NCBI GenBank assembly: GCA_009914755.4
Contig: CP086569.2
Span: 30,912,001 to 30,976,000, forward strand
Source: the human T2T-CHM13v2.0 reference genome, Homo sapiens
Reading direction: 5' to 3'
DNA length: 64,000 nt
Shown in pieces: positions 19,915-59,188 of this stretch. Numbering within the stretch: position 1 is the stretch's first letter; each line of letters opens with the position of its first letter. The notes beneath the pieces are model-generated. The model saw nothing but the letters and a program-made list of their open reading frames with translations, was not told the origin of the DNA and searched no databases. A program made the translations under genes and the position numbers.

Positions 19915-22900
19915 ATGGAGTCAAATGGAATGGTCTGGAATGGAATGAACACGAATGTAATGCAATCCAATAGAATGGAATCGAATGGCATGGAATATAA
20001 AGAAATGGAATCGAAGAGAATGGAAACAAATGGAATGGAATTGAATGGAATGGAATTGAATGGAATGGGAATGAATGGAGTGAAATTGTATGCAGTAGAA
20101 GGGAATAGAATGGAATGCAAGCGAAAGGAAAGGAATGGATTGGAATGGAATGGAATTCATTGGAATGGAAGGGAATGTAGTGTAATGGACAGGCCTGGAA
20201 TAAAGTGGAATGCTACGGTCTCGAATGGAATAAAAATGTATGGAATGGAATGCAATGAAACGGAATCGAATGTCATAGAATGTAATGGAATGCAAAAAAA
20301 TGGAATCCAAAATCATTGACTGGAAAGGCTGGGTGTCGAAAGGAATTGACTCCAATGGAATGGAATCGAATGGAATGGAAGTGAATAGAATCGAACTAAA
20401 TCGAATGGAATGGAATTGATAGGAACGGAATGGAAAGGAATGCAATGATTTGGCATGGAATGGAATCGAATGGCATCGAATGGAATGGAATGGAATGCAA
20501 TGGAATGGAATGTATTAGAATGTAATGAACTTTAATGGAATGTACTCGAATGGATTCGACTGGAATGGAATGTTCTGGAAGTGAATGGACTCCAATGGAA
20601 TGGATTCAAAAGGAATGGAATCGTACGGAATGGAATCTAATGGAATGGAATTAAATGGAAATGAATCAAATTGAATAGCACGGAATTGAATTGAATGGAA
20701 TGGAATGCAATGGAATCTAATGAAATGGAAAGGAAAGGAATGGAATGGAATGGAATGGGCTGGAATGGAAAGGAATCGAAACGAATGGAATGGAATCGAA
20801 CTGAAGAGACTGGAATGGAATGCACTGGAATGGAAGGGAGTGTAATGGAAGGTTCTCGACAAAAATGGAATCGAATGGAATGGAATTGAATGGAACGGAA
20901 TAGAGTCGAATGGAATTGAATGGAATGGAATGGACTAGAGTGAAATGGAATCGAACCACAAGGAATGGACAGGAATAGAATGGTCTCGAATTGAATGGAA
21001 TCGTATGGAATGGCATCAAACGGAATGGAATGGACAGCCACGGAATGGAATGCACTCGAATGCAATGGAGTCGAAACTAATGGACTGGAATAGAATGGAC
21101 TCGACTGGTACGGACTCCAATGGAATGGAATCGAATGGAAGGGAATCGAACAGAATGGACTCGAAGGGAAAAGACTGCAATGGAAAGGTCTCGAATGGAA
21201 TGGAAATTAATGGAATGGAATGGAATCGAATGAAATGGAGTCAAAAGGAATGGAATCGAATGGCAAGAAATCGAATGTAATGGAATCGCAAGGAATTGAT
21301 GTGAACGGAACGGAATGGAATGGAATCCAAAGGAATGGAATAGAATGGAATGGAATCGAATGGAAAGGACTCGAATGGAAATCACTCGAATAGAATGCAA
21401 TTTAATAAAATAGGATCAAATGTAATGGAATGGAATGGAAAGGAATCGAAACGAAAGGAATGGAGACAGATGGAATGGAATGGAACAGAGAGCAATGGTA
21501 TAGAATGGAATGGAATCATCTGGAATGGAATTGAATGGAATGGAATAATATGAAATGGAATGGAATGGAATGCCCTTGAATTAAATGGACTGGACTCGAA
21601 TAGAGTGGAATGGAAAGTTTTGAGATAGAATGGAATGGACCCCTTTGGAATGGTCTAGTATGCAATGCAATCGACTGGCAGGGAATCAAAAGGAATGTAA
21701 TCGAATGGATTGGACTGGAAAGCAATGGACTCGAATAGATTGGAAACGGAATGCAAAGGAATGGAATGGAATAGTATGGAATGGAATGGAAGGGAATGGA
21801 GTGGAATAGACTAGAGTGGAATGGAATGGACTGGAAAGCAATGGACTGGAATCGAACATTCTTGAATGGACTGGAATCAAACGGAATGGAATGCAATGCA
21901 ATCAAATGGCATGGAATAAAATAGAATGAAAGAGAATCAAATGGAATTGAATCGAATGGAATCGAATGGATTGGAAAGGAATAGAATGGAATGGAATGGA
22001 ATTGACTCAAATGGAATGGACTAGAATGGAATGGATTCGAATGGAAGGCAAAGGAATGGAATCTATTGGAATGGACTGTAATGGAATGGAATGGAAGGGA
22101 TTGGAATGGACTCGAATGGAATGGACTGCAATAGAAAGGATTCGAATGGAATGAAAAAGAATTGAATGGAATAGAACAGAATGGAATCAAATCGAATGAA
22201 ATGGAATGGAATAGAAAGGAATGGAATGAAATGGAATGGAAAGGATTCGAATGGAATGCAATCGAATGGAATGGAATCGAACGGAATGGAATAAAATGGA
22301 AGAAAACAGGCAAGAAATGGAATCGAAAGGAATGGAGTGTTATGGAACGGACTCAAAAGGAATTGAATGTAATAGAATGGAGTGGAGTGGACTCGAATAT
22401 AATGGACTGGAATGGAATGAAATCACATGGAATGGGAACGAATGGAATGGAATGGAAAGGAATGGAATCGAATGGAAAGGAATCGAATGGAAGGGAATGA
22501 AATTGAATCAACAGGAATGGAAGGGAATAGAATAGACGGTAATGGAATGGACTCGAATAGAATGGACACGAATGCTCAAATTGAATGGACTCGAATGGAA
22601 TGGAAACGAAAGGAATGTCATCGAATGGAATTGAATCGATTGGAATGAAATCGCATAGAATGGAGTGGAATCAAATGGAATTGAATCGAAAGGAAAGGAA
22701 GCGAATGGACTGAAATGAAATGGAATGGAATTGAATGGAAAGTAATGCAATGGAATAGAAGGGAACGAAATTTCACGGAATGGAATCAAACTGAATGGAA
22801 TCAAATCAATGGAATCAAATCAAATGGAATGGAAAGGAATTGAATGGAGTAGATTGGATTGCATGGGATTGGAATGAAATGTACTGGAAAGGACTCGAAT

Positions 22901-23463
22901 TTCATGAAACGGAATGGAATGAATTGGAACGGAATGGACTCGAATGGAATGGAATGTCATGGAATGGCATCAAATGGAATGGCATCAAATGGAATGGAAT
23001 CGAATGCAATGGAATGCTATGGAATGGAATTGAATGCATTGGAATGGAATGTCCTCTAATGGAATGGATTCGAGTGGAATGGAATCGAATATAATGGAGT
23101 CGAATGAAATGGAATTGAAAGGAATGGGATCGAATACAATGGAATATACTGGAATGTAATGTAATGAACACGAATGTAACTGACTGGAATGGAATGTACA
23201 TGAATGGAATGTAATCGAAAGGAAAGTAATCCAATGGAATAGAATCTAATGCAATAAAATCGACTCAGATAGAGTAGAATGTAATGGAATGGAGTGCAGT
23301 GCAATGCAATGGAATGGAATGGAATGCAATGGAATGGAATGGAATGGAATGGAATGGAATGGAATGGAATGGAATGGGATGGAATGGTATGGAATGGATA
23401 GTAATGGACTGGAGTGAAATGGACTGGAAAGGAATGGACTCAAATTGAAAGGGCTCGAAAGGA
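19915..23463 (+). repeat. HOR unit 6 (3549 bp)
   Basis: Anchor to anchor. Confidence 0.8.
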
Positions 23464-26400
23464 ATGGAGTCAAATGGAATGGTCTGGAATGGAATGAACA
23501 CGAATGTAATGCAATCCAATAGAATGGAATCGAATGGCATGGAATATAAAGAAATGGAATCGAAGAGAATGGAAACAAATGGAATGGAATTGAATGGAAT
23601 GGGAACGAATGGAGTGAAATTGTATGCAGTAGAAGGGAATAGAATGGAATGCAAGCGAAAGGAAAGGAATGGATTGGAATGGAATGGAATTCATTGGAAT
23701 GGAAGGGAATGTAGTGTAATGGACAGGCCTGGAATAAAGTGGAATGCTACGGTCTCGAATGGAATAAAAATGTATGGAATGGAATGCAATGAAACGGAAT
23801 CGAATGTCATAGAATGTAATGGAATGCAAAAAAATGGAATCCAAAATCATTGACTGGAAAGGCTGGGTGTCGAAAGGAATTGACTCCAATGGAATGGAAT
23901 CGAATGGAGTGGAAGTGAATAGAATCGAACTAAATCGAATGGAATGGAATTGATAGGAACGGAATGGAAAGGAATGCAATGATTTGGCACGGAATGGAAT
24001 CGAATGGCATCGAATGGAATGGAATGGAATGCAATGGAATGGAACGTATTAGAATGTAATGAACTTTAATGGAATGTACTCGAATGGATTCGACTGGAAT
24101 GGAATGTTCTGGAAGTGAATGGACTCCAATGGAATGGATTCAAAAGGAATGGAATCGTACGGAATGGAATCTAATGGAATGGAATTAAATGGAAATGAAT
24201 CAAATTGAATAGCATGGAATTGAATTGAATGGAATCGAATGCAATGGAATCTAATGAAACGGAAAGGAAAGGAATGGAATGGAATGGAATGGGCTGGAAT
24301 GGAAAGGAATCGAAACGAATGGAATGGAATCGAACTGAAGAGACTGGAATGGAATGCACTGGAATGGAAGGGAGTGTAATGGAAGGTTCTCGAAAAAAAT
24401 GGAATCGAATGGAATGGAATTGAATGGAACGGAATAGAGTCGAATGGAATTGAATGGAATGGAATGGACTAGAGTGAAATGGAATCGAACCACAAGGAAT
24501 GGACAGGAATAGAATGGTCTCGAATTGAATGGAATCGTATGGAATGGCATCAAACGGAATGGAATGGACAGCCACGGAATGGAATGCACTCGAATGCAAT
24601 GGAGTCGAAACTAATGGACTGGAATAGAATGGACTCGACTGGTACGGACTCCAATGGAATGGAATCGAATGGAAGGGAATCGAACGGAATGGACTCGAAG
24701 GGAAAAGACTGCAATGGAAAGGTCTCGAATGGAATGGAAATAAATGGAATGGAATGGAATCGAATGAAATGGAGTCAAAAGGAATGGAATCGAATGGCAA
24801 GAAATCGAATGTAATGGAATCGCAAGGAATTGATGTGAACGGAACGGAATGGAATGGAATCCAAAGGAATGGAATAGAATGGAATGGAATCGAATGGAAA
24901 GGACTCGAATGGAAATCACTCGAATAGAATGCAATTTAATAAAATAGGACCAAATGTAATGGAATGGAATGGAAAGGAATCGAAACGAAAGGAATGGAGA
25001 CAGATGGAATGGAATGGAACAGAGAGCAATGGTATAGAATGGAATGGAATCATCTGGAATGGAATTGAATGGAATGGAATAATATGAAATGGAATGGAAT
25101 GGAATGGAATGGAATGCCCTTGAATTAAATGGACTGGAATGGAATGGACTCGAACAGAGTGGAATGGAAAGTGTTGAGATAGAATGGAATGGACTCGTTA
25201 GGAATGGTCTAGTAGGCAATGCAATCGACTGGCAGGGAATCAAAAGGAATGTAATCGAATGGATTGGACAGGAATGCAATGGACTCGAATAGATTGCAAA
25301 CGGAATGCAAAGGAATGGAATGGAATAGTATGGAATGGAATGGAAAGGAATGGAGTAGAATAGACTAGAGTGGAATGGAATGGACTGGAAAGAAATGGAC
25401 TGGAATGGAACTTTCTTGAATGGACTGGAATCAAACGGAATGGAATGCAATGCAATCAAATGGCATGGAATAAAATAGAATGAAAGAGAATCAAATGGAA
25501 TTGAATCGAATGGAATCGAATGGATTGGAAAGGAATAGAATGGAATGGAATGGAATGGACTAGAATGGAATGGATTCGAATGGAAGGCAAAGGAATGGAA
25601 TCTATTGGAATGGACTGTAATGGAATGGAATGGAAGGGATTGGAATGGACTCGAATGGAATGGACTGCAATAGAAAGGATTCGAATGGAATGAAAAAGAA
25701 TTGAATGGAATAGAACAGAATGGAATCAAATCGAATGAAATGGAATGGAATAGAAAGGAATGGAATGAAATGGAATGGAAAGGATTCGAATGGAATGCAA
25801 TCGAATGGAATGGAATCGAACGGAATGGAATAAAATGGAAGAAAACTGGCAAGAAATGGAATCGAAATGAATGGAGTGTTATGGAACGGACTCAAAAGGA
25901 ATTGAATGTAATAGAATGGAGTGGAGTGGACTCGAATATAATGGACTGGAATGGAATGAAATCACATGGAATGGGAACGAATGGAATGGAATGGAAAGGA
26001 ATGGAATCGAATGGAAAGGAATCGAATGGAAGGGAATGAAATTGAATCAACAGGAATGGAAGGGAATAGAATAGACGGTAATGGAATGGACTCGAATAGA
26101 ATGGACACGAATGCTCAAATTGAATGGACTCGAATGGAATGGAAACGAAAGGAATGTCATCGAATGGAATTGAATCGATTGGAATGAAATCGCATAGAAT
26201 GGAGTGGAATCAAATGGAATTGAATCGAAAGCAAAGGAAGCGAATGGACTGAAATGAAATGGAATGGAATTGAATGGAAAGTAATGCAATGGAATAGAAT
26301 GGAACGAAATTTCACGGAATGGAATCAAACTGAATGGAATCAAATCAATGGAATCAAATCAAATGGAATGGAAAGGAATTGAATGGAGTAGATTGGATTG

Positions 26401-27007
26401 GATGGGATTGGAATGAAATGTACTGGAAAGGACTCGAATTTCATGAAACGGAATGGAATGAATTGGAACGGAATGGACTCGAATGGAATGGAATGTCATG
26501 GAATGGCATCAAATGGAATGGCATCAAATGGAATGGAATCGAATGCAATGGAATGCTATGGAATGGAATGGAATGCATTGGAATGGAATGTCCTCTAATG
26601 GAATGGATTCGAGTGGAATGGAATCGAATATAATGGAGTCGAATGAAATGGAATTGAAAGGAATGGGATCGAATACAATGGAATATACTGGAATGTAATG
26701 TAATGAACTCGAATGTAATTGACTGGAATGGAATGTACATGAATGGAATGTAATCGAATGGAAAGTAATCCAATGGAATAGAATCTAATGCAATAAAATC
26801 GACTCAGATAGAGTAGAATGTAATGGAATGGAGTGCAGTGCAATGGAATGGAATGGAATGGAATGCAATTGAATGGAATGGAATGGAATGGAATGGAATG
26901 GAATGGAATGGAATGGAATGGGATGGAATGGTATGGAATGGATAGTAATGGACTGGAGTGAAATGGACTGGAAAGGAATGGACTCAAATTGAAAGGGCTC
27001 GAAAGGA
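23464..27007 (+). repeat. HOR unit 7 (3544 bp)
   Basis: Anchor to anchor. A 15-bp (three-pentamer) deletion at offset ~120 is shared with unit 8. Confidence 0.8.
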
Positions 27008-30000
27008 ATGGAGTCAAATGGAATGGTCTGGAATGGAATGAACACGAATGTAATGCAATCCAATAGAATGGAATCGAATGGCATGGAATATAAAGAAATG
27101 GAATCGGAGAGAATGGAAACAAATGGAATGGAATTGAATGGAATGGGAACGAATGGAGTGAAATTGTATGCAGTAGAAGGGAATAGAATGGAATGCAAGC
27201 GAAAGGAAAGGAATGGATTGGAATGGAATGGAATTCATTGGAATGGAAGGGAATGTAGTGTAATGGACAGGCCTGGAATAAAGTGGAATGCTACGGTCTC
27301 GAATGGAATAAAAATGTATGGAATGGAATGCAATGAAACGGAATCGAATGTCATAGAATGTAATGGAATGCAAAAAAATGGAATCCAAAATCATTGACTG
27401 GAAAGGCTGGGTGTCGAAAGGAATTGACTCCAATGGAATGGAATCGAATGGAATGGAAGTGAATAGAATCGAACTAAATCGAATGGAATTTAATTGATAG
27501 GAACGGAATGGAAAGGAATGCAATGATTTGGCATGGAATGGAATCGAATGACATCGAATGGAATGGAATGGAATGCAATGGAATGGAACGTATTAGAATG
27601 TAATGAACTTTAATGGAATGTACTTGAATGGATTCGACTGGAATGGAATGTTCTGGAAGTGAATGGACTCCAATGGAATGGATTCAAAAGGAATGGAATC
27701 GTACGGAATGGAATCTAATGGAATGGAATTAAATGGAAATGAATCAAATTGAATAGCACGGAATTGAATTGAATGGAATGGAATGCAATGGAATCTAATG
27801 AAACGGAAAGGAAAGGAATGGAATGGAATGGAATGGGCTGGAATGGAAAGGAATCGAAACGAATGGAATGGAATCGAACTGAAGAGACTGGAATGGAATG
27901 CACTGGAATGGAAGGGAGTGTAATGGAAGGTTCTCGAAAAAAATGAAATGGAATGGAATAGAATTGAATGGAACGGAATAGAGTCGAATGGAATTGAATG
28001 GAATGGAATGGACTAGAGTGAAATGGAATCGAACCACAAGGAATGGACAGGAATAGAATGGTCTCGAATTGAATGGAATCGTATGGAATGGCATCAAACG
28101 GAATGGAATGGACAGCCACTGAATGGAATGCACTCGAATGCAATGGAGTCGAAACTAATGGACTGGAATAGAATGGACTCGACTGGTACGGACTCCAATG
28201 GAATGGAATCGAACGGAATGGACTCGAAGGGAAAAGACTGCAATGGAAAGGTCTCGAATGGAATGGAAATTAATGGAATGGAATGGAATCGAATGAAATG
28301 GAGTCAAAAGGAATGGAATCGAATGGCAAGAAATCGAATGTAATGGAATCGCAAGGAATTGATGTGAACAGAACGGAATGGAATGGAATCCAAAGGAATG
28401 GAATAGAATGGAATGGAATCGAATGGAAAGGACTCGAATGGAAATCACTCGAATAGAATGCAATTTAATAAAATAGGATCAAATGTAATGGAATGGAATG
28501 GAAAGGAATTGAAACGAAAGGAATGGAGACAGATGGAATGGAATGGAACAGAGAGCAATGGTATAGAATGGAATGGAATCATCTGGAATGGAATTGAATG
28601 GAATGGAATAATATGAAATGGAATGGAATGGAATGGAATGGAATGCCCTTGAATTAAATGGACTGGAATGGAATGGACTCGAACAGAGTGGAATGGAAAG
28701 TGTTGAGATAGAATGGAATGGACTCCTTTGGAATGGTGTAGTATGCAATGCAATCGACTGGCAGGGAATCAAAAGGAATGTAATGGAATGGACTGGACTG
28801 GAATGCAATGGACTCGAATAGATTGGAAACGGAATGCAAAGGAATGGAATGGAATAGTATGGAATGGAATGGAAAGGAATGGAGTGGAATAGACTAGAGT
28901 GGAATGGAATGGACTGGAAAGCAATGGACTGGAATGGATCTTTCTTGAATGGACTGGAATCAAACGGAATGGAATGCAATGCAATCAAATGGCATGGAAT
29001 AAAATAGAATGAAAGAGAATCAAATGGAATTGAATCGAATGGAATCGAATGGATTGGAAAGGAATAGAATGGAATGGAATGGAATTGACTCAAATGGAAT
29101 GGACTAGAATGGAATGGATTCGAATGGAAGGCAAAGGAATGGAATCTATTGGAATGGACTGTAATGGAATGGAATGGAAGGGATTGGAATGGACTCGAAT
29201 GGAATGGACTGCAATAGAAAGGATTCGAATGGAATGAAAAAGAATTGAATGGAATAGAACAGAATGGAATCAAATCGAATGAAATGGAATGGAATAGAAA
29301 GGAATGGAATGAAATGGAATGGAAAGGATTCGAATGGAATGCAATCGAATGGAATGGAATCGAACGGAATGGAATAAAATGGAAGAAAACTGGCAAGAAA
29401 TGGAATCGAAATGAATGGAGTGTTATGGAATGGACTCAAAAGGAATTGAATGTAATAGATTGGAGTGGAGTGGACTCGAATATAATGGACTGGAATGGAA
29501 TGAAATCACATGGAATGGGAACGAATGGAATGGAATGGAAAGGAATGGAATCGAATGGAAAGGAATCGAATGGAAGGGAATGAAATTGAATCAACAGGAA
29601 TGGAAGGGAATAGAATAGACGGCAATGGAATGGACTCGAATAGAATGGACACGAATGCTCAAATTGAATGGACTCGAATGGAATGGAAACGAAAGGAATG
29701 TCATCGAATGGAATTGAATCGATTGGAATGAAATCGCATAGAATGGAGTGGAATCAAATGGAATTGAATCGAAAGGAAAGGAAGCGAATGGACTGAAATG
29801 AAATGGAATGGAATTGAATGGAAATTAATGCAATGGAATAGAATGGAACGAAATTTCACGGAATGGAATCAAACTGAATGGAATCAAATCAATGGAATCT
29901 AATCAAATGGAATGGAAAGGAATTGAATGGAGTAGATTGGATTGGATGGGATTGGAATGAAATGTACTGGAAAGGACTCGAATTTCATGAAACGGAATGG

Positions 30001-30551
30001 AATGAATTGGAACGGAATGGACTCGAATGGAATGGAATGTCATGAAATGGCATCAAATGGAATGGCATCAAATGGAATGGAATCGAATGCAATGGAATGG
30101 TATGGAATGGAATGGAATGCATTGGAATGGAATGTCCTCTAATGGAATGGATTCGAGTGGAATGGAATCGAATATAATGGAGTCGAATGAAATGGAATTG
30201 AAAGGAATGGGATCGAATACAATGGAATATACTGGAATGTAATGTAATGAACTCGAATGTAATTGACTGGAATGGAATGTACACGAATGGAATGTAATCG
30301 AATGGAAAGTAATCCAATGGAATAGAATCTAATGCAATAAAACCGACTCAGATAGAGTAGAATGTAATGGAATGGAGTGCAGTGCAATGGAATGGAATTG
30401 AATTGAATGCAATGGAATGGAATCGAATGGAATGGAATGGAATGGAATGGAATGGAATGGAATGGGATGGAATGGTATGGAATGGATAGTAATGGACTGG
30501 AGTGAAATGGACTGGAAAGGAATGGACTCAAATTGAAAGGGCTCGAAAGGA
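27008..30551 (+). repeat. HOR unit 8 (3544 bp)
   Basis: Anchor to anchor. Its 3' two-thirds (from ~28600) is near-identically repeated in unit 9/10 space. Confidence 0.8.
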
Positions 30552-33510
30552 ATGGAGTCAAATGGAATGGTCTGGAATGGAATGAACACGAATGTAATGC
30601 AATCCAATAGAATGGAATCGAATGGCATGAAATATAAAGAAATGGAATCGAAGAGAATGGAAACAAATGGAATGGAATTGAATGGAATGGAATTGAATGG
30701 AATGGGAACGAATGGAGTGAAATTGTATGCAGTAGAAGGGAATAGAATGGAATGCAAGCGAAAGGAAAGGAATGGATTGGAATGGAATGGAATTCATTGG
30801 AATGGAAGGGAATGTAGTGTAATGGACAGGCCTGGAATAAAGTGGAATGCTACGGTCTCGAATGGAATAAAAATGTATGGAATGGAATGCAATGAAACGG
30901 AATCGAATGTCATAGAATGTAATGGAATGCAAAAAAATGGAATCCAAAATCATTGACTGGAAAGGCTGGGTGTCGAAAGGAATTGACTCCAATGGAATGG
31001 AATCGAATGGAATGGAAGTGAATAGAATCGAACTAAATCGAATGGAATGGAATTGATAGGAACGGAATGGAAAGGAATGCAATGATTTGGCATGGAATGC
31101 AATCGAATGGCATCGAATGGAATGGAATGGAATGCAATGGAATGGAATGTATTAGAATGTAATGAACTTTAAAGGAATGTACTCGAATGGATTCGACTGG
31201 AATGGAATGTTCTGGAAGTGAATGGACTCCAATGGAATGGATTCAAAAGGAATGGAATCGTACGGAATGGAATCTAATGGAATGGAATTAAATGGAAATG
31301 AATCAAATTGAATAGCACGGAATTGAATTGAATGGAATGGAATGCAATGGAATCTAATGAAACGGAAAGGAAAGGAATGGAATGGAATGGAATGGACTGG
31401 AATGGAAAGGAATCGAAACGAATGGAATGGAATCGAACTGAAGAGACTGGAATGGAATGCACTGGAATGGAAGGGAGTGTAATGGAAGGTTCTCGAAAAA
31501 AATGGAATCGAATGGAATGGAATTGAATGGAACGGAATAGAGTCGAATGGAATTGAATGGAATGGAATAATATGAAATGGAATGGAATGGAATGGAATGG
31601 AATGCCCTTGAATTAAATGGACTGGAATGGAATGGACTCGAACAGAGTGGAATGGAAAGTGTTGAGATAGAATGGAATGGACTCCTTTGGAATGGTGTAG
31701 TATGCAATGCAATCGACTGGCAGGGAATCAAAAGGAATGTAATGGAATGGACTGGACTGGAATGCAATGGACTCGAATAGATTGGAAACGGAATGCAAAG
31801 GAATGGAATGGAATAGTATGGAATGGAATGGAAAGGAATGGAGTGGAATAGACTAGAGTGGAATGGAATGGACTGGAAAGCAATGGACTGGAATGGATCT
31901 TTCTTGAATGGACTGGAATCAAACGGAATGGAATGCAATGCAATCAAATGGCATGGAATAAAATAGAATGAAAGAGAATCAAATGGAATTGAATCGAATG
32001 GAATCGAATGGATTGGAAAGGAATAGAATGGAATGGAATGGAATTGACTCAAATGGAATGGACTAGAATGGAATGGATTCGAATGGAAGGCAAAGGAATG
32101 GAATCTATTGGAATGGACTGTAATGGAATGGAATGGAAGGGATTGGAATGGACTCGAATGGAATGGACTGCAATAGAAAGGATTCGAATGGAATGAAAAA
32201 GAATTGAATGGAATAGAACAGAATGGAATCAAATCGAATGAAATGGAATGGAATAGAAAGGAATGGAATGAAATGGAATGGAAAGGATTCGAATGGAATG
32301 CAATCGAATGGAATGGAATCGAACGGAATGGAATAAAATGGAAGAAAACTGGCAAGAAATGGAATCGAAATGAATGGAGTGTTATGGAATGGACTCAAAA
32401 GGAATTGAATGTAATAGATTGGAGTGGAGTGGACTCGAATATAATGGACTGGAATGGAATGAAATCACATGGAATGGGAACGAATGGAATGGAATGGAAA
32501 GGAATGGAATCGAATGGAAAGGAATCGAATGGAAGGGAATGAAATTGAATCAACAGGAATGGAAGGGAATAGAATAGACGGCAATGGAATGGACTCGAAT
32601 AGAATGGACACGAATGCTCAAATTGAATGGACTCGAATGGAATGGAAACGAAAGGAATGTCATCGAATGGAATTGAATCGATTGGAATGAAATCGCATAG
32701 AATGGAGTGGAATCAAATGGAATTGAATCGAAAGGAAAGGAAGCGAATGGACTGAAATGAAATGGAATGGAATTGAATGGAAATTAATGCAATGGAATAG
32801 AATGGAACGAAATTTCACGGAATGGAATCAAACTGAATGGAATCAAATCAATGGAATCTAATCAAATGGAATGGAAAGGAATTGAATGGAGTAGATTGGA
32901 TTGGATGGGATTGGAATGAAATGTACTGGAAAGGACTCGAATTTCATGAAACGGAATGGAATGAATTGGAACGGAATGGACTCGAATGGAATGGAATGTC
33001 ATGAAATGGCATCAAATGGAATGGCATCAAATGGAATGGAATCGAATGTAATGGAATGGTATGGAATGGAATGGAATGCATTGGAATGGAATGTCCTCTA
33101 ATGGAATGGATTCGAGTGGAATGGAATCGAATATAATGGAGTCGAATGAAATGGAATTGAAAGGAATGGGATCGAATACAATGGAATATACTGGAATGTA
33201 ATGTAATGAACTCGAATGTAATTGACTGGAATGGAATGTACACGAATGGAATGTAATCGAATGGAAAGTAATCCAATGGAATAGAATCTAATGCAATAAA
33301 ACCGACTCAGATAGAGTAGAATGTAATGGAATGGAGTGCAGTGCAATGGAATGGAATTGAATTGAATGCAATGGAATGGAATCGAATGGAATGGAATGGA
33401 ATGGAATGGAATGGAATGGAATGGGATGGAATGGTATGGAATGGATAGTAATGGACTGGAGTGAAATGGACTGGAAAGGAATGGACTCAAATTGAAAGGG
33501 CTCGAAAGGA
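30552..33510 (+). repeat. HOR unit 9, short variant (2959 bp); lacks unit offsets ~1010-1625
   Basis: Anchor spacing is 2959 bp. At ~31541-31568 'gagtcgaatggaattgaatgg' is joined directly to 'aatggaataatatgaaatggaatgg', which is normally ~615 bp downstream. Confidence 0.8.
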
Positions 33511-36500
33511 ATGGAGTCAAATGGAATGGTCTGGAATGGAATGAACACGAATGTAATGCAATCCAATAGAATGGAATCGAATGGCATGAAATATAAAGAA
33601 ATGGAATCGAAGAGAATGGAAACAAATGGAATGGAATTGAATGGAATGGAATTGAATGGAATGGGAACGAATGGAGTGAAATTGTATGCAGTAGAAGGGA
33701 ATAGAATGGAATGCAAGCGAAAGGAAAGGAATGGATTGGAATGGAATGGAATTCATTGGAATGGAAGGGAATGTAGTGTAATGGACAGGCCTGGAATAAA
33801 GTGGAATGCTACGGTCTCGAATGGAATAAAAATGTATGGAATGGAATGCAATGAAACGGAATCGAATGTCATAGAATGTAATGGAATGCAAAAAAATGGA
33901 ATCCAAAATCATTGACTGGAAAGGCTGGGTGTCGAAAGGAATTGACTCCAATGGAATGGAATCGAATGGAATGGAAGTGAATAGAATCGAACTAAATCGA
34001 ATGGAATGGAATTGATAGGAACGGAATGGAAAGGAATGCAATGATTTGGCATGGAATGCAATCGAATGGCATCGAATGGAATGGAATGGAATGCAATGGA
34101 ATGGAATGTATTAGAATGTAATGAACTTTAAAGGAATGTACTCGAATGGATTCGACTGGAATGGAATGTTCTGGAAGTGAATGGACTCCAATGGAATGGA
34201 TTCAAAAGGAATGGAATCGTACGGAATGGAATCTAATGGAATGGAATTAAATGGAAATGAATCAAATTGAATAGCACGGAATTGAATTGAATGGAATGGA
34301 ATGCAATGGAATCTAATGAAACGGAAAGGAAAGGAATGGAATGGAATGGAATGGACTGGAATGGAAAGGAATCGAAACGAATGGAATGGAATCGAACTGA
34401 AGAGACTGGAATGGAATGCACTGGAATGGAAGGGAGTGTAATGGAAGGTTCTCGAAAAAAATGGAATCGAATGGAATGGAATTGAATGGAACGGAATAGA
34501 GTCGAATGGAATTGAATGGAATGGAATGCACTAGAGTGAAATGGAATCGAACCACAAGGAATGGACAGGAATAGAATGGTCTCGAATTGAATGGAATCGT
34601 ATGGAATGGCATCAAACGGAATGGAATGGACAGCCACGGAATGGAATGCACTCGAATGCAATGGAGTCGAAACTAATTGACTGGAATAGAATGGACTCGA
34701 CTGGTACGGACACCAATGGAATGGAATCGAATGGAAGGGAATCGAACGGAATGGACTCGAAGGGAAAAGACTGCAATGGAAAGGTCTCGAATGGAATGGA
34801 AATTAATGGAATGGAATGGAATCGAATGAAATGGAGTCAAAAGGAATGGAATCGAATGGCAAGAAATCGAATGTAATGGAATCGCAAGGAATTGATGTGA
34901 ACGGAACGGAATGGAATGGAATCCAAAGGAATGGAATAGAATGGAATGGAATCGAATGGAAAGGACTCGAATGGAAATCACTCGAATAGAATGCTATTTA
35001 ATAAAATAGGATCAAATGGAATGGAATGGAATGGAAAGGAATCGAAACGAAAGGAATGGAGACAGATGGAATGGAATAGAACAGAGAGCAATGGTATAGA
35101 ATGGAATGGAATCATCTGGAATGGAATTGAATGGAATGGAATAATATGAAATGGAATGGAATGGAATGGAATGGAATGCCCTTGAATTAAATGGACTGGA
35201 ATGTAATGGACTCGAACAGAGTGGAATGGAAAGTGTTGAGATAGAATGGAATGGACTCCTTTGGAATGGTGTAGTATGCAATGCAATCGACTGGCATGGA
35301 ATCAAAAGGAATGTAATCGAATGGATTGGACTGGAATGCAATGGACTCGAATAGATTGGAAACGGAATGCAAAGGAATGGAATGGAATAGTATGGAATGG
35401 AATGGAAAGGAATGGAGTGGAATAGACTAGAGTGGAATGGAATGGACTGGAAAGCAATGGACTGGAATGGAACTTTCTTGAATGGACTGGAATCAAACTG
35501 AATGGAATGCAATGCAATCAAATGGCATGGAATAAAATAGAATGAAAGAGAATCAAATGGAATTGAATCGAATGGAATCGAATGGATTGGAAAGGAATAG
35601 AATGGAATGGAATGGAATGGACTCAAATGGAATGGACTAGAATGGAATGGATTCGAATGGAAGGCAAAGGAATGGAATCTATTGGAATGGACTGTAATGG
35701 AATGGAATGGAAGGGATTGGAATGGACTCGAATGGAATGGACTGCAATAGAAAGGATTCGAATGGAATGAAAAAGAATTGAATGGAATAGAACAGAATGG
35801 AATCAAATCGAATGAAATGGAATGGAATAGAAAGGAATGGAATGAAATGGAATGGAAAGGATTCGAATGGAATGCAATCGAATGGAATGGAATCGAACGG
35901 AATGGAATAAAATGGAAGAAAACTGGCAAGAAATGGAATCGAAATGAATGGAGTGTTATGGAACGGACTCAAAAGGAATTGAATGTAATAGAATGGAGTG
36001 GAGTGGACTCGAATATAATGGACTGGAATGGAATGAAATCACATGGAATGGGAACGAATGGAATGGAATGGAAAGGAATGGAATCGAATGGAAAGGAATC
36101 GAATGGAAGGGAATGAAATTGAATCAACAGGAATGGAAGGGAATAGAATAGACGGTAATGGAATGGACTCGAATAGAATGGACACGAATGCTCAAATTGA
36201 ATGGACTCGAATGGAATGGAAACGAAAGGAATGTCATCGAATGGAATTGAATCGATTGGAATGAAATCGCATAGAATGGAGTGGAATCAAATGGAATTGA
36301 ATCGAAAGGAAAGGAAGCGAATGGACTGAAACGAAATGGAATGGAATTGAATGGAAAGTAATGCAATGGAATAGAATGGAACGAAATTTCACGGAATGGA
36401 ATCAAACTGAATGGAATCAAATCAATGGAATCCAATCAAATGGAATGGAGTAGATTGGATTGGATGGGATTGGAATGAAATGTACTGGAAAGGACTCGAA

Positions 36501-40628: not shown

Positions 40629-43600
40629 ATGGAGTCAAATGGAATGGTCTGGAATGGAATGAACACGAATGTAATGCAATCCAATAGAATGGAATCGAAT
40701 GGCATGGAATATAAAGAAATGGAATCGAAGAGAATGGAAACAAATGGAATGGAATTGAATGGAATGGAATTGAATGGAATGGGAAGGAATGGAGTGAGAT
40801 TGTATGCAGTAGAAGAGAATAGAATGGAATGCAAGTGAAAGGAAAGGAATGGATTGGAATGGAATGGAATTCATTGGAATGGAAGGGAATGTAGTGTAAT
40901 GGACAGGCCTGGAATAAAGTGGAATGCTACGGTCTCGAATGGAATAAAAATGTATGGAATGGAATGCAATGAAACGGAATCGAATGTCATAGAATGTAAT
41001 GGAATGCAAAAAAATGGAATCCAAAATCATTGACTGGAAAGGCTGGGTGTCGAAAGGAATTGACTCCAATGGAATGGAATCGAATGGAATGGAAGTGAAT
41101 AGAATCGAACTAAATCGAATGGAATGGAATTGATAGCAACGGAATGGAAAGGAATGCAATGATTTGGCATGGAATGGAATCGAATGGCATCGAATGGAAT
41201 GGAATGGAATGCAATGGAATGGAATGTATTAGAATGTAATGAACTTTAATGGAATGTACTCGAATGGATTCGACTGGAATGGAATGTTCTGGAAGTGAAT
41301 GGACTCCAATGGAATGGATTCAAAAGGAATGGAATCGTACGGAATGGAATCTAATGGAATGGAATTAAATGGAAATGAATCAAATTGAATGGCACGGAAT
41401 TGAATTGAATGGAATGGAATGCAATGGAATCTAATGAAACGGAAAGGAAAGGAATGGAATGGAATGGAATGGGCTGGAATGGAAAGGAATCGAAACGAAT
41501 GGAATGGAATCGAACTGAAGAGACTGGAATGGAATGCACTGGAATGGAAGGGAGTGTAATGGAAGGTTCTCGAAAAAAATGGAATCGAATGGAATGGAAT
41601 TGAATGGAACGGAATAGAGTCGAATGGAATTGAATGGAATGGAATGGACTAGAGTGAAATGGAATCGAACCACAAGGAATGGAGAGGAATAGAATGGTCT
41701 CGAATTGAATGGAATCGTATGGAATGGCATCAAACGGAATGGAATGGACAGCCACGGAATGGAATGCACTCGAATGCAATGGAGTCGAAACTAATGGACT
41801 GGAATAGAATGGACTCGACTGGTACGGACTCCAATGGAATGGAATCGAATGGAAGGGAATCGAACGGAATGGACTCGAAGGGAAAAGACTGCAATGGAAA
41901 GGTCTCGAATGGAATGGAAATCAATGGAATGGAATGGAATCGAATGAAATGGAGTCAAAAGCAATGGAATCGAATGGCAAGAAATCGAATGTAATGGAAT
42001 CGCAAGGAATTGATGTGAACGGAACGGAATGGAATGGAATCCAAAGGAATGGAATAGAATGGAATGGAATCGAATGGAAAGGACTCGAATGGAAATCACT
42101 CGAATAGAATGCAATTTAATAAAATAGGATCAAATGTAATGGAATGGAATGGAAAGGAATCGAAACGAAAGGAATGGAGACAGATGGAATGGAATGGAAC
42201 AGAGAGCAATGGTATAGAAAGGAATGGAATCATCTGGAATGGAATTGAATGGAATGGAATAATATGAAATGGAATGGAATGGAATGGAATGCCCTTGAAT
42301 TAAATGGACTGGAATGGAATGGACTCGAACAGAGTGGAATGGAAAGTGTTGAGATAGAATGGAATGGACTCGTTTGGAATGGTCTAGTAGGCAATGCAAT
42401 CGACTGGCAGGGAATCAAAAGGAATGTAATGGAATGGATTGGACTGGAATGCAATGGACTCGAATAGATTGGAAACGGAATGCAAAGGAATGGAATGGAA
42501 TAGTATGGAATGGAATGGAAAGGAATGGAGTGGAATAGACTAGAGTGGAATGGAATGGACTCGAAAGCAATGGACTGGAATGCAACTTTCTTGAATGGAC
42601 TGGAATCAAACGGAATGGAATGCAATGCAATCAAATGGCATGGAATAAAATAGAATGAAAGAGAATCAAATGGAATTGAATCGAATGGAATCGAATGGAT
42701 TGGAAAGGAATAGAATGGAATGGAATGGAATTGACTCAAATGGAATGGACTAGAATGGAATGGATTCGAATGGAAGGCAAAGGAATGGAATCTATTGGAA
42801 TGGACTGTAATGGAATGGAATGGAAGGGATTGGAATGGACTCGAATGGAATGGACTGCAATAGAAAGGATTCGAATGGAATGAAAAAGAATTGAATGGAA
42901 TAGAACAGAATGGAATCAAATCGAATGAAATGGAATGGAATAGAAAGGAATGGAATGAAATGGAATGGAAAGGATTCGAATGGAATGCAATCGAATGGAA
43001 TGGAATCGAACGGAATGGAATAAAATGGAAGAAAACTGGCAAGAAATGGAATCGAAATGAATGGAGTGTTATGGAACGGACTCAAAAGGAATTGAATGTA
43101 ATAGAATGGAGTGGAGTGGACTCGAATATAATGGACTGGAATGGAATGAAATCACATGGAATGGGAACGAATGGAATGGAATGGAAAGGAATGGAATCGA
43201 ATGGAAAGGAATCGAATGGAAGGGAATGAAATTGAATCAACAGGAATGGAAGGGAGTAGAATAGACGGTAATGGAATGGGCTCGAATAGAATGGACACGA
43301 ATGCTCAAATTGAATGCACTCGAATGGAATGGAAATGAAAGGAATGTCATCGAATGGAATTGAATCGATTGGAATGAAATTGCATAGAATGGAATGGAAT
43401 CAAATGGAATTGATTCGAAAGGAAAGGAAGCGAATGGACTGAAATGAAATGGAATGGAGTTGAATGGAAAGTTATGTAATGGAATAGAATGGAACGAAAT
43501 TTCACGGAATGGAATCAAACTGAATGGAATCAAATCAATGGAATCAAATCAAATGGAATGGAAAGGAATTGAATGGAGTAGATTGGATTGGATGGGATTG

Positions 43601-44172
43601 GAATGAAATGTACTGGAAAGGACTCGAATTTCACGAAACGGAATGGAATGAATTGGAACGGAACGGACTCGAATGGAATGGAATGTCATGGAATGGCATC
43701 AAATGGAATGGCATCAAATGGAATGGAATCGAATGCAATGGAATGCTATGGAATGGAATGGAATGCATTGGAATGGAATGTCCTCTAATGGAATGGATTC
43801 GAGTGGAATGGAATCGAATATAATGGAGTCGAATGAAATGGAATTGAAAGGAATGGGATCGAATAGAATGGAATATACTGGAATGTAATGTAATGAACTC
43901 GAATGTAATTGACTGGAATGGAATGTACATGAATGGAATGTAATCGAATGGAAAGTAATCCAATGGAATAGAATCTAATGCAATAAAATCGACTCAGATA
44001 GAGTAGAATGTAATGGAATGGAGTGCAGTGCAATGGAATGGAATGGAATGGAATGCAATGGAATGGAATGCAATGGAATGGAATGGGATGGAATGGTGTG
44101 GAATGGATAGTAATGGACTGGAGTGAAATGGACTGGAAAGGAATGGACTCAAATTGAAAGGGCTCGAAAGGA
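40629..44172 (+). repeat. HOR unit 12 (3544 bp), 'gaagagaat' subtype
   Basis: Anchor to anchor. Confidence 0.8.
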
Positions 44173-47100
44173 ATGGAGTCAAATGGAATGGTCTGGAATG
44201 GAATGAACACGAATGTAATGCAATCCAATAGAATGGAATCGAATGGCATGGAATATAAAGAAATGGAATCGAAGAGAATGGAAACAAATGGAATGGAATT
44301 GAATGGAATGGAATTGAATGGAATGGGAACGAATGGAGTGAAATTGTATGCAGTAGAAGAGAATAGAATGGAATGCAAGCGAAAGGAAAGGAATGGATTG
44401 GAATGGAATGGAATTCATTGGAATGGAAGGGAATGTAGTGTAATGGACAGGCCTGGAATAAAGTGGAATGCTACGGTCTCGAATGGAATAAAAATGTATG
44501 GAATGGAATGCAATGAAACGGAATCGAATGTCATAGAATGTAATGGAATGCAAAAAAATGGAATCCAAAATCATTGACTGGAAAGGCTGGGTGTCGAAAG
44601 GAATTGACTCCAATGGAATGGAATCGAATGGAATGGAAGTGAATAGAATCGAATTAAATCGAATGGAATGGAATTGATAGCAACGGAATGGAAAGGAATG
44701 CAATGATTTGGCATGGAATGGAATCGAATGGCATCGAATGGAATGGAATGGAATGCAATGGAATGGAATGTATTAGAATGTAATGAACTTTAATGGAATG
44801 TACTCGAATGGATTCGACTGGAATGGAATGTTCTGGAAGTGAATGGACTCCAATGGAATGGTTTCAAAAGGAATGGAATCGTACGGAATGGAATCTAATG
44901 GAATGGAATTAAATGGAAATGAATCAAATTGAATGGCACGGAATTGAATTGAATGGAATGGAATGCAATGGAATCTAATGAAACGGAAAGGAAAGGAATG
45001 GAATGGAATGGAATGGGCTGGAATGGAAAGGAATCGAAACGAATGGAATGGAATCGAACTGAAGAGACTGGAATGGAATGCACTGGAATGGAAGGGAGTG
45101 TAATGGAAGGTTCTCGAAAAAAATGGAATCGAATGGAATGGAATTGAATGGAACGGAATAGAGTCGAATGGAATTGAATGGAATGGAATGGACTAGAGTG
45201 AAATGGAATCGAACCACAAGGAATGGAGAGGAATAGAATGGTCTCGATTTGAATGGAATCGTATGGAATGGCATCAAACGGAATGGAATGGACAGCCACG
45301 GAATGGAATGCACTCGAATGCAATGGAGTCGAAACTAATGGACTGGAATAGAATGGACTCGACTGGTACGGACTCCAATGGAATGGAATCGAATGGAAGG
45401 GAATCGAACGGAATGGACTCGAAGGGAAAAGACTGCAATGGAAAGGTCTCGAATGGAATGGAAATCAATGGAATGGAATGGAATCGAATGAAATGGAGTC
45501 AAAAGGAATGGAATCGAATGGCAAGAAATCGAATGTAATGGAATCGCAAGGAATTGATGTGAACGGAACGGAATGGAATGGAATCCAAAGGAATGGAATA
45601 GAATGGAATGGAATCGAATGGAAAGGACTCGAATGGAAATCACTCGAATAGAATGCAATTTAATAAAATAGGATCAAATGTAATGGAATGGAATGGAAAG
45701 GAATCGAAACGAAAGGAATGGAGACAGATGGAATGGAATGGAACAGAGAGCAATGGTATAGAAAGGAATGGAATCATCTGGAATGGAATTGAATGGAATG
45801 GAATAATATGAAATGGAATGGAATGGAATGGAATGCCCTTGAATTAAATGGACTGGAATGGAATGGACTCGAACAGAGTGGAATGGAAAGTGTTGAGATA
45901 GAATGGAATGGACTCGTTTGGAATGGTCTAGTAGGCAATGCAATCGACTGGCAGGGAATCAAAAGGAATGTAATGGAATGGATTGGACTGGAATGCAATG
46001 GACTCGAATAGATTGGAAACGGAATGCAAAGGAATGGAATGGAATAGTATGGAATGGAATGGAAAGGAATGGAGTGGAATAGACTAGAGTGGAATGGAAT
46101 GGACTCGAAAGCAATGGACTGGAATGCAACTTTCTTGAATGGACTGGAATCAAACGGAATGGAATGCAATGCAATCAAATGGCATGGAATAAAATAGAAT
46201 GAAAGAGAATCAAATGGAATTGAATCGAATGGAATCGAATGGATTGGAAAGGAATAGAATGGAATGGAATGGAATTGACTCAAATGGAATGGACTAGAAT
46301 GGAATGGATTCGAATGGAAGGCAAAGGAATGGAATCTATTGGAATGGACTGTAATGGAATGGAATGGAAGGGATTGGAATGGACTCGAATGGAATGGACT
46401 GCAATAGAAAGGATTCGAATGGAATGAAAAAGAATTGAATGGAATAGAACAGAATGGAATCAAATCGAATGAAATGGAATGGAATAGAAAGGAATGGAAT
46501 GAAATGGAATGGAAAGGATTCGAATGGAATGCAATCGAATGGAATGGAATCGAACGGAATGGAATAAAATGGAAGAAAACTGGCAAGAAATGGAATCGAA
46601 ATGAATGGAGTGTTATGGAACGGACTCAAAAGGAATTGAATGTAATAGAATGGAGTGGAGTGGACTCGAATATAATGGACTGGAATGGAATGAAATCACA
46701 TGGAATGGGAACGAATGGAATGGAATGGAAAGGAATGGAATCGAATGGAAAGGAATCGAATGGAAGGGAATGAAATTGAATCAACAGGAATGGAAGGGAG
46801 TAGAATAGACGGTAATGGAATGGACTCGAATAGAATGGACACGAATGCTCAAATTGAATGCACTCGAATGGAATGGAAATGAAAGGAATGTCATCGAATG
46901 GAATTGAATCGATTGGAATGAAATTGCATAGAATGGAGTGGAATCAAATGGAATTGAATCGAAAGGAAAGGAAGCGAATGGACTGAAATGAAATGGAATG
47001 GAGTTGAATGGAAAGTTATGTAATGGAATAGAATGGAACGAAATTTCACGGAATGGAATCAAACTGAATGGAATCAAATCAATGGAATCAAATCAAATGG

Positions 47101-47716
47101 AATGGAAAGGAATTGAATGGAGTAGATTGGATTGGATGGGATTGGAATGAAATGTACTGGAAAGGACTCGAATTTCACGAAACGGAATGGAATGAATTGG
47201 AACGGAACGGACTCGAATGGAATGGAATGTCATGGAATGGCATCAAATGGAATGGCATCAAATGGAATGGAATCGAATGCAATGGAATGCTATGGAATGG
47301 AATGGAATGCATTGGAATGGAATGTCCTCTAATGGAATGGATTCGAGTGGAATGGAATCGAATATAATGGAGTCGAATGAAATGGAATTGAAAGGAATGG
47401 GATCGAATACAATGGAATATACTGGAATATAATGTAATGAACTCGAATGTAATTGACTGGAATGGAATGTACATGAATGGAATGTAATCGAATGGAAAGT
47501 AATCCAATGGAATAGAATCTAATGCAATAAAATCGACTCAGATAGAGTAGAATGTAATGGAATGGAGTGCATTGCAATGGAATGGAATGGAATGGAATGC
47601 AATGGAATGGAATGCAATGGAATGGAATGGGATGGAATGGTGTGGAATGGATAGTAATAGACTGGAGTGAAATGGACTGGAAAGGAATGGACTCAAATTG
47701 AAAGGGCTCGAAAGGA
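44173..47716 (+). repeat. HOR unit 13 (3544 bp)
   Basis: Anchor to anchor. Very similar to units 12, 14 and 15. Confidence 0.8.
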
Positions 47717-50700: not shown

Positions 50701-51265
50701 ATATACTGGAAAGGACTCGAATTTCATGAAACGGAATGGAATGAATTGGAACGGAACGGACTCGAATGGAATGGAATGTCATGGAATGGCATCAAATGGA
50801 ATGGCATCAAATGGAATGGAATCGAATGCAATGGAATGCTATGGAATGGAATGGAATGCATTGGAATGGAATGTCCTCTAATGGAATGGATTCGAGTGGA
50901 ATGGAATCGAATATAATGGAGTCGAATGAAATGGAATTGAAAGGAATGGGATCGAAAAGAATGGAATATACTGGAATGTAATGTAATGAACTCGAATGTA
51001 ATTGACTGGAATGGAATGTACATGAATGGAATGTAATCGAATGGAAAGTAATCCAATGGAATAGAATCTAATGCAATAAAATCGACTCAGATAGAGTAGA
51101 ATGTAATGGAATGGAGTGCAGTGCAATGGAATGGAATGGAATGGAATGCAATGGAATGGAATGCAATGGAATGGAATGGGATGGAATGGTGTGGAATGGA
51201 TAGTAATGGACTGGAGTGAAATGGACTGGAAAGGAATGGACTCAAATTGAAAGGGCTCGAAAGGA
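47717..51265 (+). repeat. HOR unit 14 (3549 bp)
   Basis: Anchor to anchor. Confidence 0.8.

Positions 51266-58140: not shown

Positions 58141-59188
<1,048 letters not shown>

What the first reader, a model, noticed from the sequence alone, without database searches (positions are those of the whole stretch)
28600..34520. Near-identical 2,959-bp tandem duplication creating a 'short' HOR variant (novel junction at ~31,560)
The segment ~28600-31559 reappears as ~31560-34518. It shares private variants: the 'NVMEWTG' version of the 28618/31577 ORFs, 'ctttaaagg' at 31168 and 34127, 'gaatggactggaatgg' at 31391 and 34350, and 'atgaaatataaag' at 30626 and 33585. The only novel junction joins unit offset ~1010 to offset ~1625, inside 'aatggaattgaatggaatggaat'. 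The near-identity means either a very recent unequal sister-chromatid exchange or a local assembly error such as over-expansion.
Basis: seen in the sequence. Interest (0 to 1): 0.5.

Follow-up and report, generated by a model that had tools for sequence, protein, structure and literature searches.

The report
Recent partial-unit duplication in Y satellite
A 2,959-base piece of the human Y-chromosome DYZ1 satellite repeat sits twice in a row, the copies differing at one base; this is an ordinary, recent copying slip of the kind already known to reshape this satellite.

Summary
Window 28586-31568 matches 31545-34527 at a lag of exactly 2,959 bp, with 2,982 of 2,983 bases identical. The only difference is 30090 C against 33049 T. 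Homologous segments of the other 13 full units differ from each other and from these two copies by 13-107 positions (median over all 105 pairs: 61).

The window is (GGAAT)n-based satellite with a unit of about 3.55 kb and one HaeIII site per unit. At 58140 it abuts a 2,420-bp AT-rich repeat that contains Alu. This is the published organisation of human Yq12: DYZ1/HSat3 next to DYZ2/HSat1B.

The two copies share 14 private substitutions and a private 5-bp insertion. Near-identity stops exactly at the outer ends of the duplication. The single new junction (31545-31568) lies in a 24-bp direct repeat that flanks a 615-bp segment in nearly every unit.

The best reading is one recent out-of-register tandem duplication, by unequal sister-chromatid exchange or replication slippage at that 24-bp homology. 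At the published Yq12 mutation rate the point estimate is about 440 generations, with a very wide interval. An assembly artefact cannot be excluded without reads, but the one-base difference argues against a simple double traversal of one graph node. The phenomenon is already known, so interest is low.

The parts
28586..31544 (+). Copy 1 of the duplicated 2,959-bp partial DYZ1 unit ('A' segment). It carries the ancestral C at 30090.
   Evidence: 100% self-match, 99.966% to copy 2, and 97.3-98.9% to the other units over the full 2,959 bp.
31545..34503 (+). Copy 2 of the duplicated segment. It carries the derived T at 33049.
   Evidence: 1 difference from copy 1; at that column all 13 other units have C.
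31545..31568 (+). The only new junction. It is the 24-bp stretch GAATGGAATTGAATGGAATGGAAT, shared by the end-of-A context on its left and the start-of-A context on its right.
   Evidence: the junction 47-mer at 31534-31580 is unique in the window with up to 3 mismatches.
28586..28609 (+). Parental copy of the 24-bp repeat at the normal B-to-A boundary (left end of the duplication).
   Evidence: 16 of the 17 A-starts listed carry it exactly, the junction itself among them; the start at 5289 has one mismatch.
34504..34527 (+). Parental copy of the 24-bp repeat at the normal A-to-B boundary (right end of the duplication).
   Evidence: 15 of the 16 A-ends listed carry it exactly, the junction itself among them; the end at 17358 has one mismatch.
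27986..28585 (+). Upstream flanking 'B' segment (600 bp, with a 15-bp deletion). It is not part of the duplication.
   Evidence: 24 differing columns against the downstream B segment, so near-identity ends at 28586.
34504..35118 (+). Downstream flanking 'B' segment (615 bp). This is the segment missing between copy 1 and copy 2.
30420..30424 (+). Private 5-bp insertion GAATC, present again at 33379-33383. It is one of 15 private events shared by the two copies.
   Evidence: absent from all 13 other units in the window.

Best explanation
The window is human Yq12 satellite: a DYZ1 (HSat3) array with units of about 3.55 kb that ends at 58140 against a DYZ2 (HSat1B) array.

Each DYZ1 unit carries the same 24-bp sequence, GAATGGAATTGAATGGAATGGAAT, at both ends of a 615-bp segment B. 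The rest of the unit is segment A, about 2,959 bp. In one lineage a single event paired the 24-mer at the end of an A segment with the 24-mer at the start of that same A segment. The partner was either the sister chromatid (unequal sister-chromatid exchange) or the same template after a backward slip or template switch of the replicating strand.

The product is B-A-A-B. It holds an extra 2,959-bp A copy, one new A-to-A junction at 31545-31568, and one repeat interval of 2,959 bp instead of about 3,550 bp. Since then one C-to-T change (33049) has separated the copies. The structure has no function of its own; it is a footprint of satellite turnover.

Shown: the structure, the identity, the breakpoints, the shared private variants and the direction of the single difference. 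Inferred: the mechanism, the age and the Y-chromosomal origin.
For: **Duplication structure.**
- Lag-2,959 identity is 2,982 of 2,983 over 28586-31568 against 31545-34527.
- The pair differs at 1 column; every other unit pair differs at 13-107.
- The copies share 14 private substitutions and a 5-bp insertion that 13 other units lack. Twelve of the 15 private 21-mers are also absent from 185 kb of DYZ1 recovered from other samples.
- The flanking B segments differ at 24 columns, so identity stops exactly at the structural ends.
- Mapping the window onto one unit shows real jumps in unit offset only at about 7250 and about 31550 before the array ends at about 58150; the two other segment breaks in that output are mapping noise.
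- The junction lies in a 24-bp repeat conserved at both parental positions in nearly all units.
- At the one difference, copy 1 has the ancestral state.

**DYZ1 identity.**
- The repeat is pentamer-based.
- GGCC (HaeIII) spacing is 3,534-3,569 bp. Published figures are a modal fragment of 3,569 bp and a classical one of 3,564 bp (10.1101/2022.12.01.518658).
- From 58141 there is an adjacent 2,420-bp repeat, AT-rich with an antisense Alu. This matches the published description of DYZ2 (10.1101/2022.12.01.518724).

**Mechanism in the literature.** Unequal exchange is the published explanation for Yq12 dynamics, and sister-chromatid exchanges were seen in Yq12 in about 15% of Strand-seq libraries. 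About one de novo structural variant per Y transmission occurs there (PMC12240836).
Against: - No reads are available, so the assembly cannot be validated here.
- Exact breakpoint homology is only 24 bp, short for classical homologous exchange, so the precise mechanism is open.
- The junction 47-mer has no exact match in the metagenome or prokaryote-genome collections, whereas the canonical boundary 47-mer has 53 and 6 matching stretches. Nothing outside this window therefore corroborates the junction. This is expected for a single-copy variant among thousands of units.
- Several equal or longer out-of-register exact repeats exist in the unit, so nothing singles out this 24-mer as a special site.
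Confidence: 0.8

Rival explanations
1. Assembly artefact. The assembler walked a 2,959-bp loop once too often, or joined reads chimerically at the 24-bp repeat, and the real chromosome has B-A-B here.
For: The copies are near-identical (1 difference in 2,959) in a satellite known to be hard to assemble. Manual graph curation and errors in walking tandem-repeat loops are reported for Y assemblies (PMC13252187). No independent sequence contains the junction.
Against: The copies are not identical (30090 C, 33049 T), whereas traversing one node twice would give identical copies. The whole structure is only 5.9 kb and has distinctive flanks, 24 differing columns between the two B segments and 60-76 differences to the neighbouring A segments, so ordinary 15-20 kb HiFi reads would span it (inference). 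An artefact would also have to invent an out-of-register junction.
Confidence: 0.1
2. Two steps. First a very recent in-register duplication of a whole 3.57-kb unit (A-B-A), then deletion of the 615-bp B segment between the two A copies by recombination or slippage between its flanking 24-bp direct repeats.
For: The 24-bp direct repeats flank B in nearly every unit, so a 615-bp deletion is mechanically easy. In-register homogenisation does occur in the window: units 42237 and 45781 differ at 13 positions.
Against: It needs two rare events within the time in which only one substitution accumulated. No other adjacent pair in the window is closer than 13 differences. The final sequence is identical to that of the one-step model, so parsimony favours one step.
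Confidence: 0.07
3. An old short unit whose two flanking A segments were later homogenised by gene conversion.
For: Interlocus gene conversion is frequent in Yq12: 29% of de novo single-base changes there match non-orthologous sites (PMC12240836).
Against: The near-identical tract covers the entire 2,959 bp and ends exactly at the structural boundaries. A conversion tract of about 3 kb that coincides with both ends is improbable. The older off-register junction at about 7230 shows what an old variant looks like: at least 2.2% diverged from every other unit.
Confidence: 0.03

Closest known systems
DYZ1 (HSat3A6) array of human Yq12, with its known length-variant units
   Same: The repeat is GGAAT-based. 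The unit is about 3.55 kb with one HaeIII site, giving fragments of 3,534-3,569 bp. It is adjacent to a DYZ2/HSat1B array of 2,420-bp units with AT-rich, Alu and GC-richer parts. Units are 97-99% identical to one another. 'Considerable sequence length variation' of HaeIII fragments has been published.
   Different: I found no description of this particular 2,959-bp spacing or junction. The number 2959 is absent from the one supplementary file held for Hallast et al..
Satellite or HOR structural variants produced by unequal sister-chromatid exchange (Smith-type unequal crossover), as invoked for Yq12 and for alpha-satellite HOR variants
   Same: There are head-to-tail copies with a single new junction inside sequence shared by both parental sites, and the result is a unit-length variant embedded in a regular array.
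   Different: The exchange is out of register and rests on only 24 bp of exact identity. Typical in-register exchange between 98% identical units has kilobases of homology. The event therefore also fits replication slippage or microhomology-mediated template switching.
De novo Yq12 structural variants seen in pedigrees (Porubsky et al. 2025, PMC12240836)
   Same: They are kilobase-scale gains or losses inside Yq12 satellite arrays, occurring about once per Y transmission.
   Different: The reported events (2,416-4,839 bp) each affected whole DYZ2 units. This one is in DYZ1, involves a partial unit, and is not known to be de novo.
The 2.7-kbp and 3.1-kbp repeats of the Yq11/Yq12 transition zone (Hallast et al. 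2023)
   Same: They are shorter-than-DYZ1 tandem units on Yq related to DYZ1 or DYZ18.
   Different: Those are separate repeat families forming arrays: the 2.7-kbp repeat is only about 85% similar to DYZ1 by k-mer profile. Here a single interval is 99.97% identical to its DYZ1 neighbour, deep inside a DYZ1 array.

Membership tests
DYZ1 / HSat3A6 (human Yq12) | Built from diverged GGAAT/CATTC pentamers | tested here: met
   Autocorrelation peaks at multiples of 5; the TRF consensus units are AATGG-based; composition is A 40%, G 29%, T 22%, C 9%.
DYZ1 / HSat3A6 (human Yq12) | Nested unit of about 3.56 kb cut once by HaeIII (classical 3,564 bp; modal 3,569 bp in assemblies) | tested here: met
   GGCC spacings are 3563, 3569, 3559, 3549, 3534, 3544, 3559, [2959], 3549, 3569, 3544, 3544, 3549 and 3534; published values are.
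DYZ1 / HSat3A6 (human Yq12) | Alternates with DYZ2/HSat1B arrays (about 2.4-2.5 kb units: AT-rich region, ancient AluY piece, GC-richer part) | tested here: met
   From 58141 the period is 2,420 bp (84% self-identity), GC falls to 12-18% and alternates with 35-40%, and an antisense Alu lies at about 58900-59190. Sub-threshold hits to the mir-1268 model recur every 2,420 bp; that this family is Alu-derived is from my own knowledge.
DYZ1 / HSat3A6 (human Yq12) | Sequence match to a reference DYZ1 consensus, and location on the Y chromosome | not testable with these tools
   No human reference is available. Indirect evidence only: 59 contigs, 53 metagenome stretches (two named human gut metagenome) and 6 'bacterial' contigs, carry the canonical 47-mer and match window units at a median of 98.3%. 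This agrees with the published HSat3 contamination of databases.
Tandem duplication by unequal exchange or slippage | Two head-to-tail copies, one new junction, both outer boundaries canonical | tested here: met
Tandem duplication by unequal exchange or slippage | Copies more similar to each other than to any other unit, sharing derived variants | tested here: met
   1 difference against at least 33 to any other unit; 15 shared private events.
Classical NAHR (long-homology recombination) | Breakpoints inside an uninterrupted homology tract of roughly 100-300 bp or more (requirement recalled from general knowledge) | tested here: not met
   Exact identity is 24 bp; the 40 bp upstream and 36 bp downstream of the two parental sites are only loosely similar.
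Assembly over-expansion artefact | Copies exactly identical because the same graph node is traversed twice | tested here: not met
   One C/T difference, at 30090 and 33049.
Assembly over-expansion artefact | No spanning reads, or abnormal read depth | not testable with these tools
   No read data are accessible.

The most novel reading that the evidence does not exclude
The conserved 24-bp direct repeats on either side of the 615-bp B segment act as a recurrent breakpoint pair. B-less (2,959-bp) DYZ1 intervals would then arise repeatedly in different Y lineages, and this near-identical A-A pair would be the first step of a new, shorter higher-order unit that in-register exchange could now amplify. 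That would make the birth of a satellite HOR variant observable and datable.
Probability: 0.08. Interest if true: 0.3.

Novelty: already known. Interest (0 to 1): 0.1.

Why it matters
It matters little on its own. It is a clean, base-resolved example of how satellite arrays turn over: a partial-unit, out-of-register duplication with 24-bp breakpoint homology, datable from a single substitution.

If real, the junction 47-mer GGAATAGAGTCGAATGGAATTGAATGGAATGGAATAATATGAAATGG is a unique tag inside otherwise unmappable Yq12. It could serve as a lineage marker for a Y sub-haplogroup, or as a local check on assembly correctness. It does not change the understanding of DYZ1 or of unequal exchange.

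Tried and rejected
- **The repeat finder on 26-37 kb.** The pentamer background swamped it (hundreds of 60-70% 'copies'). Only families D6 and D7 were usable, with 99% copies spaced 3,544, 2,959 and 3,574 bp. I relied on lag analysis, blastn and MAFFT in scripts instead.
- **TRF.** Its period limit is 500, so it cannot see the 3.5-kb or 2.96-kb periods.
- **Junction in public collections.** There were 0 exact hits in metagenome contigs and genome contigs, and none at up to 2 substitutions in the 59 DYZ1 loci fetched. The control canonical 47-mer gave 53 and 6 stretches. The negative only shows that the junction is not a common subfamily. The viral-contig collection holds no DYZ1 boundary at all, so that result is uninformative.
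- **Rfam on 57-64 kb.** It gave only sub-gathering hits to mir-1268, an Alu-derived family by my own recollection; I used them merely as a pointer to the Alu piece of DYZ2.
- **Search for '2959' in the one supplementary file held for Hallast et al..** Nothing found.
- **Simple 615-bp deletion within three homogenised units.** Rejected because the flanking B copies differ at 24 columns.
- **The 24-mer as a uniquely long internal repeat.** Rejected because longer out-of-register exact repeats (28-29 bp) exist in the unit.
Rejected as coding: they are by-products of the stop-poor GGAAT frame.
Full report
**1. What the window is.** The 64-kb window is A/G-rich (A 25,763, G 18,336, T 14,300, C 5,601). 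It is built from diverged GGAAT pentamers: autocorrelation peaks at multiples of 5, and the TRF consensus units are AATGG-based. On top of this lies a higher-order period of about 3.55 kb, with best long lags of 3,544, 3,549 and 3,559.

Each unit has one GGCC (HaeIII) site, with spacings of 3,534-3,569 bp. This is the classical definition of the human Y satellite DYZ1. Published figures are a 3,564-bp HaeIII fragment and a modal 3,569-bp fragment in complete Yq12 assemblies (Hallast et al., 10.1101/2022.12.01.518658). [quoted passage not shown]

The array ends at 58140. From 58141 the sequence is AT-rich (GC down to 12-18%). It has a 2,420-bp period at 84% self-identity and an antisense Alu at about 58900-59190. 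Weak hits to the mir-1268 model recur every 2,420 bp; I recall that family as Alu-derived. This is the published structure of DYZ2/HSat1B, which alternates with DYZ1 in Yq12.

I could not compare the window with a human reference. As indirect support, the canonical DYZ1 boundary 47-mer occurs in 53 metagenome stretches, two of them named human gut metagenome. It also occurs in 6 nominally bacterial or archaeal contigs. These loci match the window's units at a median of 98.3%. This agrees with the HSat3 contamination of databases that Rhie et al. reported.

**2. The observation.** Neighbouring in-phase lags give about 0.65. The matching tract is 28586-31568 against 31545-34527, 2,983 bp with one mismatch: 30090 C against 33049 T. 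The structure is therefore two head-to-tail copies of 2,959 bp (28586-31544 and 31545-34503) plus a shared 24-mer.

I extracted the 15 homologous full-length 'A' segments of the window and aligned them. The two copies differ at 1 column. The other 104 pairs differ at 13-107 columns (median over all 105 pairs: 61), and other adjacent pairs at 13-76. The longest exact repeat in the window at lags of 1 kb or more is 1,504 bp at lag 2,959; the next is 1,317 bp at lag 3,544.

The copies share 14 substitutions and a 5-bp insertion (GAATC, 30420-30424 and 33379-33383) that none of the other 13 units has. Twelve of the 15 private 21-mers are also absent from the 185 kb of DYZ1 fetched from other samples. 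One of them, GAATGGACTGGAATGG, also occurs at 9131. The anchors at 27008, 30552 and 33511 are identical 40-mers.

**3. Anatomy of the event.** A canonical unit is B (615 bp) followed by A (about 2,930-2,960 bp). The same 24-mer, GAATGGAATTGAATGGAATGGAAT, starts both B and A in almost every unit. Every unit therefore carries a 24-bp direct repeat on either side of B.

Around the finding the order is B(27986-28585) - A1 - A2 - B(34504-35118). The A1-to-A2 junction (31545-31568) is this 24-mer, with end-of-A sequence on its left and start-of-A sequence on its right. The junction 47-mer is unique in the window even with 3 mismatches allowed. Mapping the window chunk by chunk onto a reference unit shows real out-of-register jumps only at about 7250 and about 31550 before the array ends.

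The same offset path could in principle come from a 615-bp deletion of B in the middle of three units. That would require all three units to have been near-identical already. They were not: the two flanking B copies differ at 24 columns (a 15-bp indel plus substitutions), the second most divergent B pair in the window. The neighbouring A segments differ from A1 and A2 at 60-76 positions. Near-identity thus begins and ends exactly at the structural boundaries, which is the signature of a single duplication of A.

**4. Polarity and age.** At the only difference, all 13 other units have C. Copy 1 (30090 C) therefore keeps the ancestral state and copy 2 (33049 T) is derived. The A1/A2 lineage accumulated 15 private events before the duplication and 1 after it.

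Porubsky et al. 2025 (PMC12240836) give a Yq12 de novo single-base rate of 3.86e-7 per bp per generation. With that rate, one difference in 2 x 2,959 bp gives a point estimate of about 440 generations, or about 13,000 years at 30 years per generation. The Poisson 95% range is 11-2,440 generations. With a euchromatic-type rate of 3e-8, a value I assumed from general knowledge, the estimate would be about 5,600 generations.

'Recent' is therefore right relative to the array, but the event need not be de novo. It is plausibly specific to one Y lineage. This dating is inference, and the single difference could itself be a consensus error.

**5. Mechanism.** Published work explains Yq12 dynamics by unequal sister-chromatid exchange, with gene conversion and replication slippage not excluded. 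Sister-chromatid exchanges were seen in Yq12 in about 15% of Strand-seq libraries. About one de novo kilobase-scale structural variant per Y transmission is seen there.

The present structure is what such an exchange gives when the partners are misaligned by 2,959 bp and resolve within the 24-mer. However, exact homology is only 24 bp and the flanks are merely pentamer-like. This is short for classical homologous recombination as I know it from the general literature. A replication slip or template switch between the two 24-mers gives the identical product, and the sequence alone cannot separate the two.

The 24-mer is not exceptional. Out-of-register exact repeats of 28-29 bp also exist within the unit.

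A second, older off-register junction at 7217-7244 has the same character. About 28 bp of imperfect homology joins unit offset about 2595 to about 571. Its truncated unit is at least 2.2% diverged from all others. Two of the window's roughly 16 DYZ1 unit intervals are thus length variants, in line with the 'considerable sequence length variation' of virtual HaeIII fragments reported for DYZ1.

**6. Rivals.**
- **Assembly over-expansion.** This cannot be tested without reads. The copies differ at one base. The structure is 5.9 kb with distinctive flanks, so it should be spanned by ordinary long reads (inference). An artefact would also have to create an out-of-register junction. I give it about 0.1.
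- **Two steps: whole-unit duplication, then B deletion.** This yields the same sequence but needs two rare events inside the time of one substitution (about 0.07).
- **Old variant homogenised by gene conversion.** This needs a conversion tract that coincides with both ends of the duplication (about 0.03).

**7. Independent occurrence.** The junction 47-mer has no exact match in the metagenome or prokaryote-genome collections. It is absent, even at up to 2 substitutions, from the 59 DYZ1 loci. The canonical boundary 47-mer served as a positive control, with 53 and 6 stretches. The junction is therefore not a common DYZ1 subfamily. This is uninformative about a single-copy variant among thousands of units. 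The viral collection contains no DYZ1 boundary.

**8. Verdict.** The feature is an ordinary, recent, out-of-register tandem duplication of a partial DYZ1 unit in human Yq12 heterochromatin. It was produced by the satellite turnover processes already described for this region. It has no function of its own and represents no new kind of element. Its practical value is as a unique tag or lineage marker inside Yq12, and as a spot where assembly correctness could be checked with reads.

Noticed in passing
window 4674-7287 (junction at 7217-7244): There is a second, older off-register junction in the same array. Unit offset about 2595 joins offset about 571 within about 28 bp of imperfect homology (CGAAAGGAATGGAG.CA.ATGGAATGG), giving anchor spacings of about 2,003-2,013 bp. 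The truncated unit is at least 2.2% diverged from every other unit, so unlike the 2,959-bp event it is old.
   Followed up: partly
window 58140/58141 to 64000: The DYZ1 array ends abruptly in mid-unit (unit offset about 2368). An AT-rich repeat of 2,420-bp period begins, with an antisense Alu piece at about 58900-59190, repeated at +2,420 and +4,840. This is a DYZ1-DYZ2 (HSat3-HSat1B) array boundary.
   Followed up: partly
window 42237-55792 compared with 21523-27985: Unit similarity is patchy. The four units from 42237 to 55792 form a more homogeneous sub-block (13-46 differences per 2.9 kb). Units 21523 and 25057 are the most divergent (66-107 differences). The nearest relative of the duplicated segment is the unit at 10846 (33 differences), not its physical neighbours (60-76).
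   Followed up: partly
window 27986-28585: The B segment immediately upstream of the duplication carries a 15-bp deletion and is the most divergent B copy in the window (19-25 differing columns against all others).
   Followed up: no
L054 (BMRF01000076.1), L055, L056, L057, L058, L059: Contigs deposited as Actinomadura cremea, two Streptomyces species, Senimuribacter sp., a Ca. Nitrosocosmicus MAG and a Polyangiaceae MAG are human DYZ1 satellite. For example, L054 (3,637 bp) is 99.4% identical to a window unit. These are human-male DNA contamination of prokaryotic assemblies, and several contigs are about one collapsed unit long.
   Followed up: partly
window 7612 and 48814: There are extra GGCC (HaeIII) sites beyond the one per unit. 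In a virtual or real digest they would split units into non-canonical fragments, for example 3,654 + 1,903 bp around 7612.
   Followed up: no
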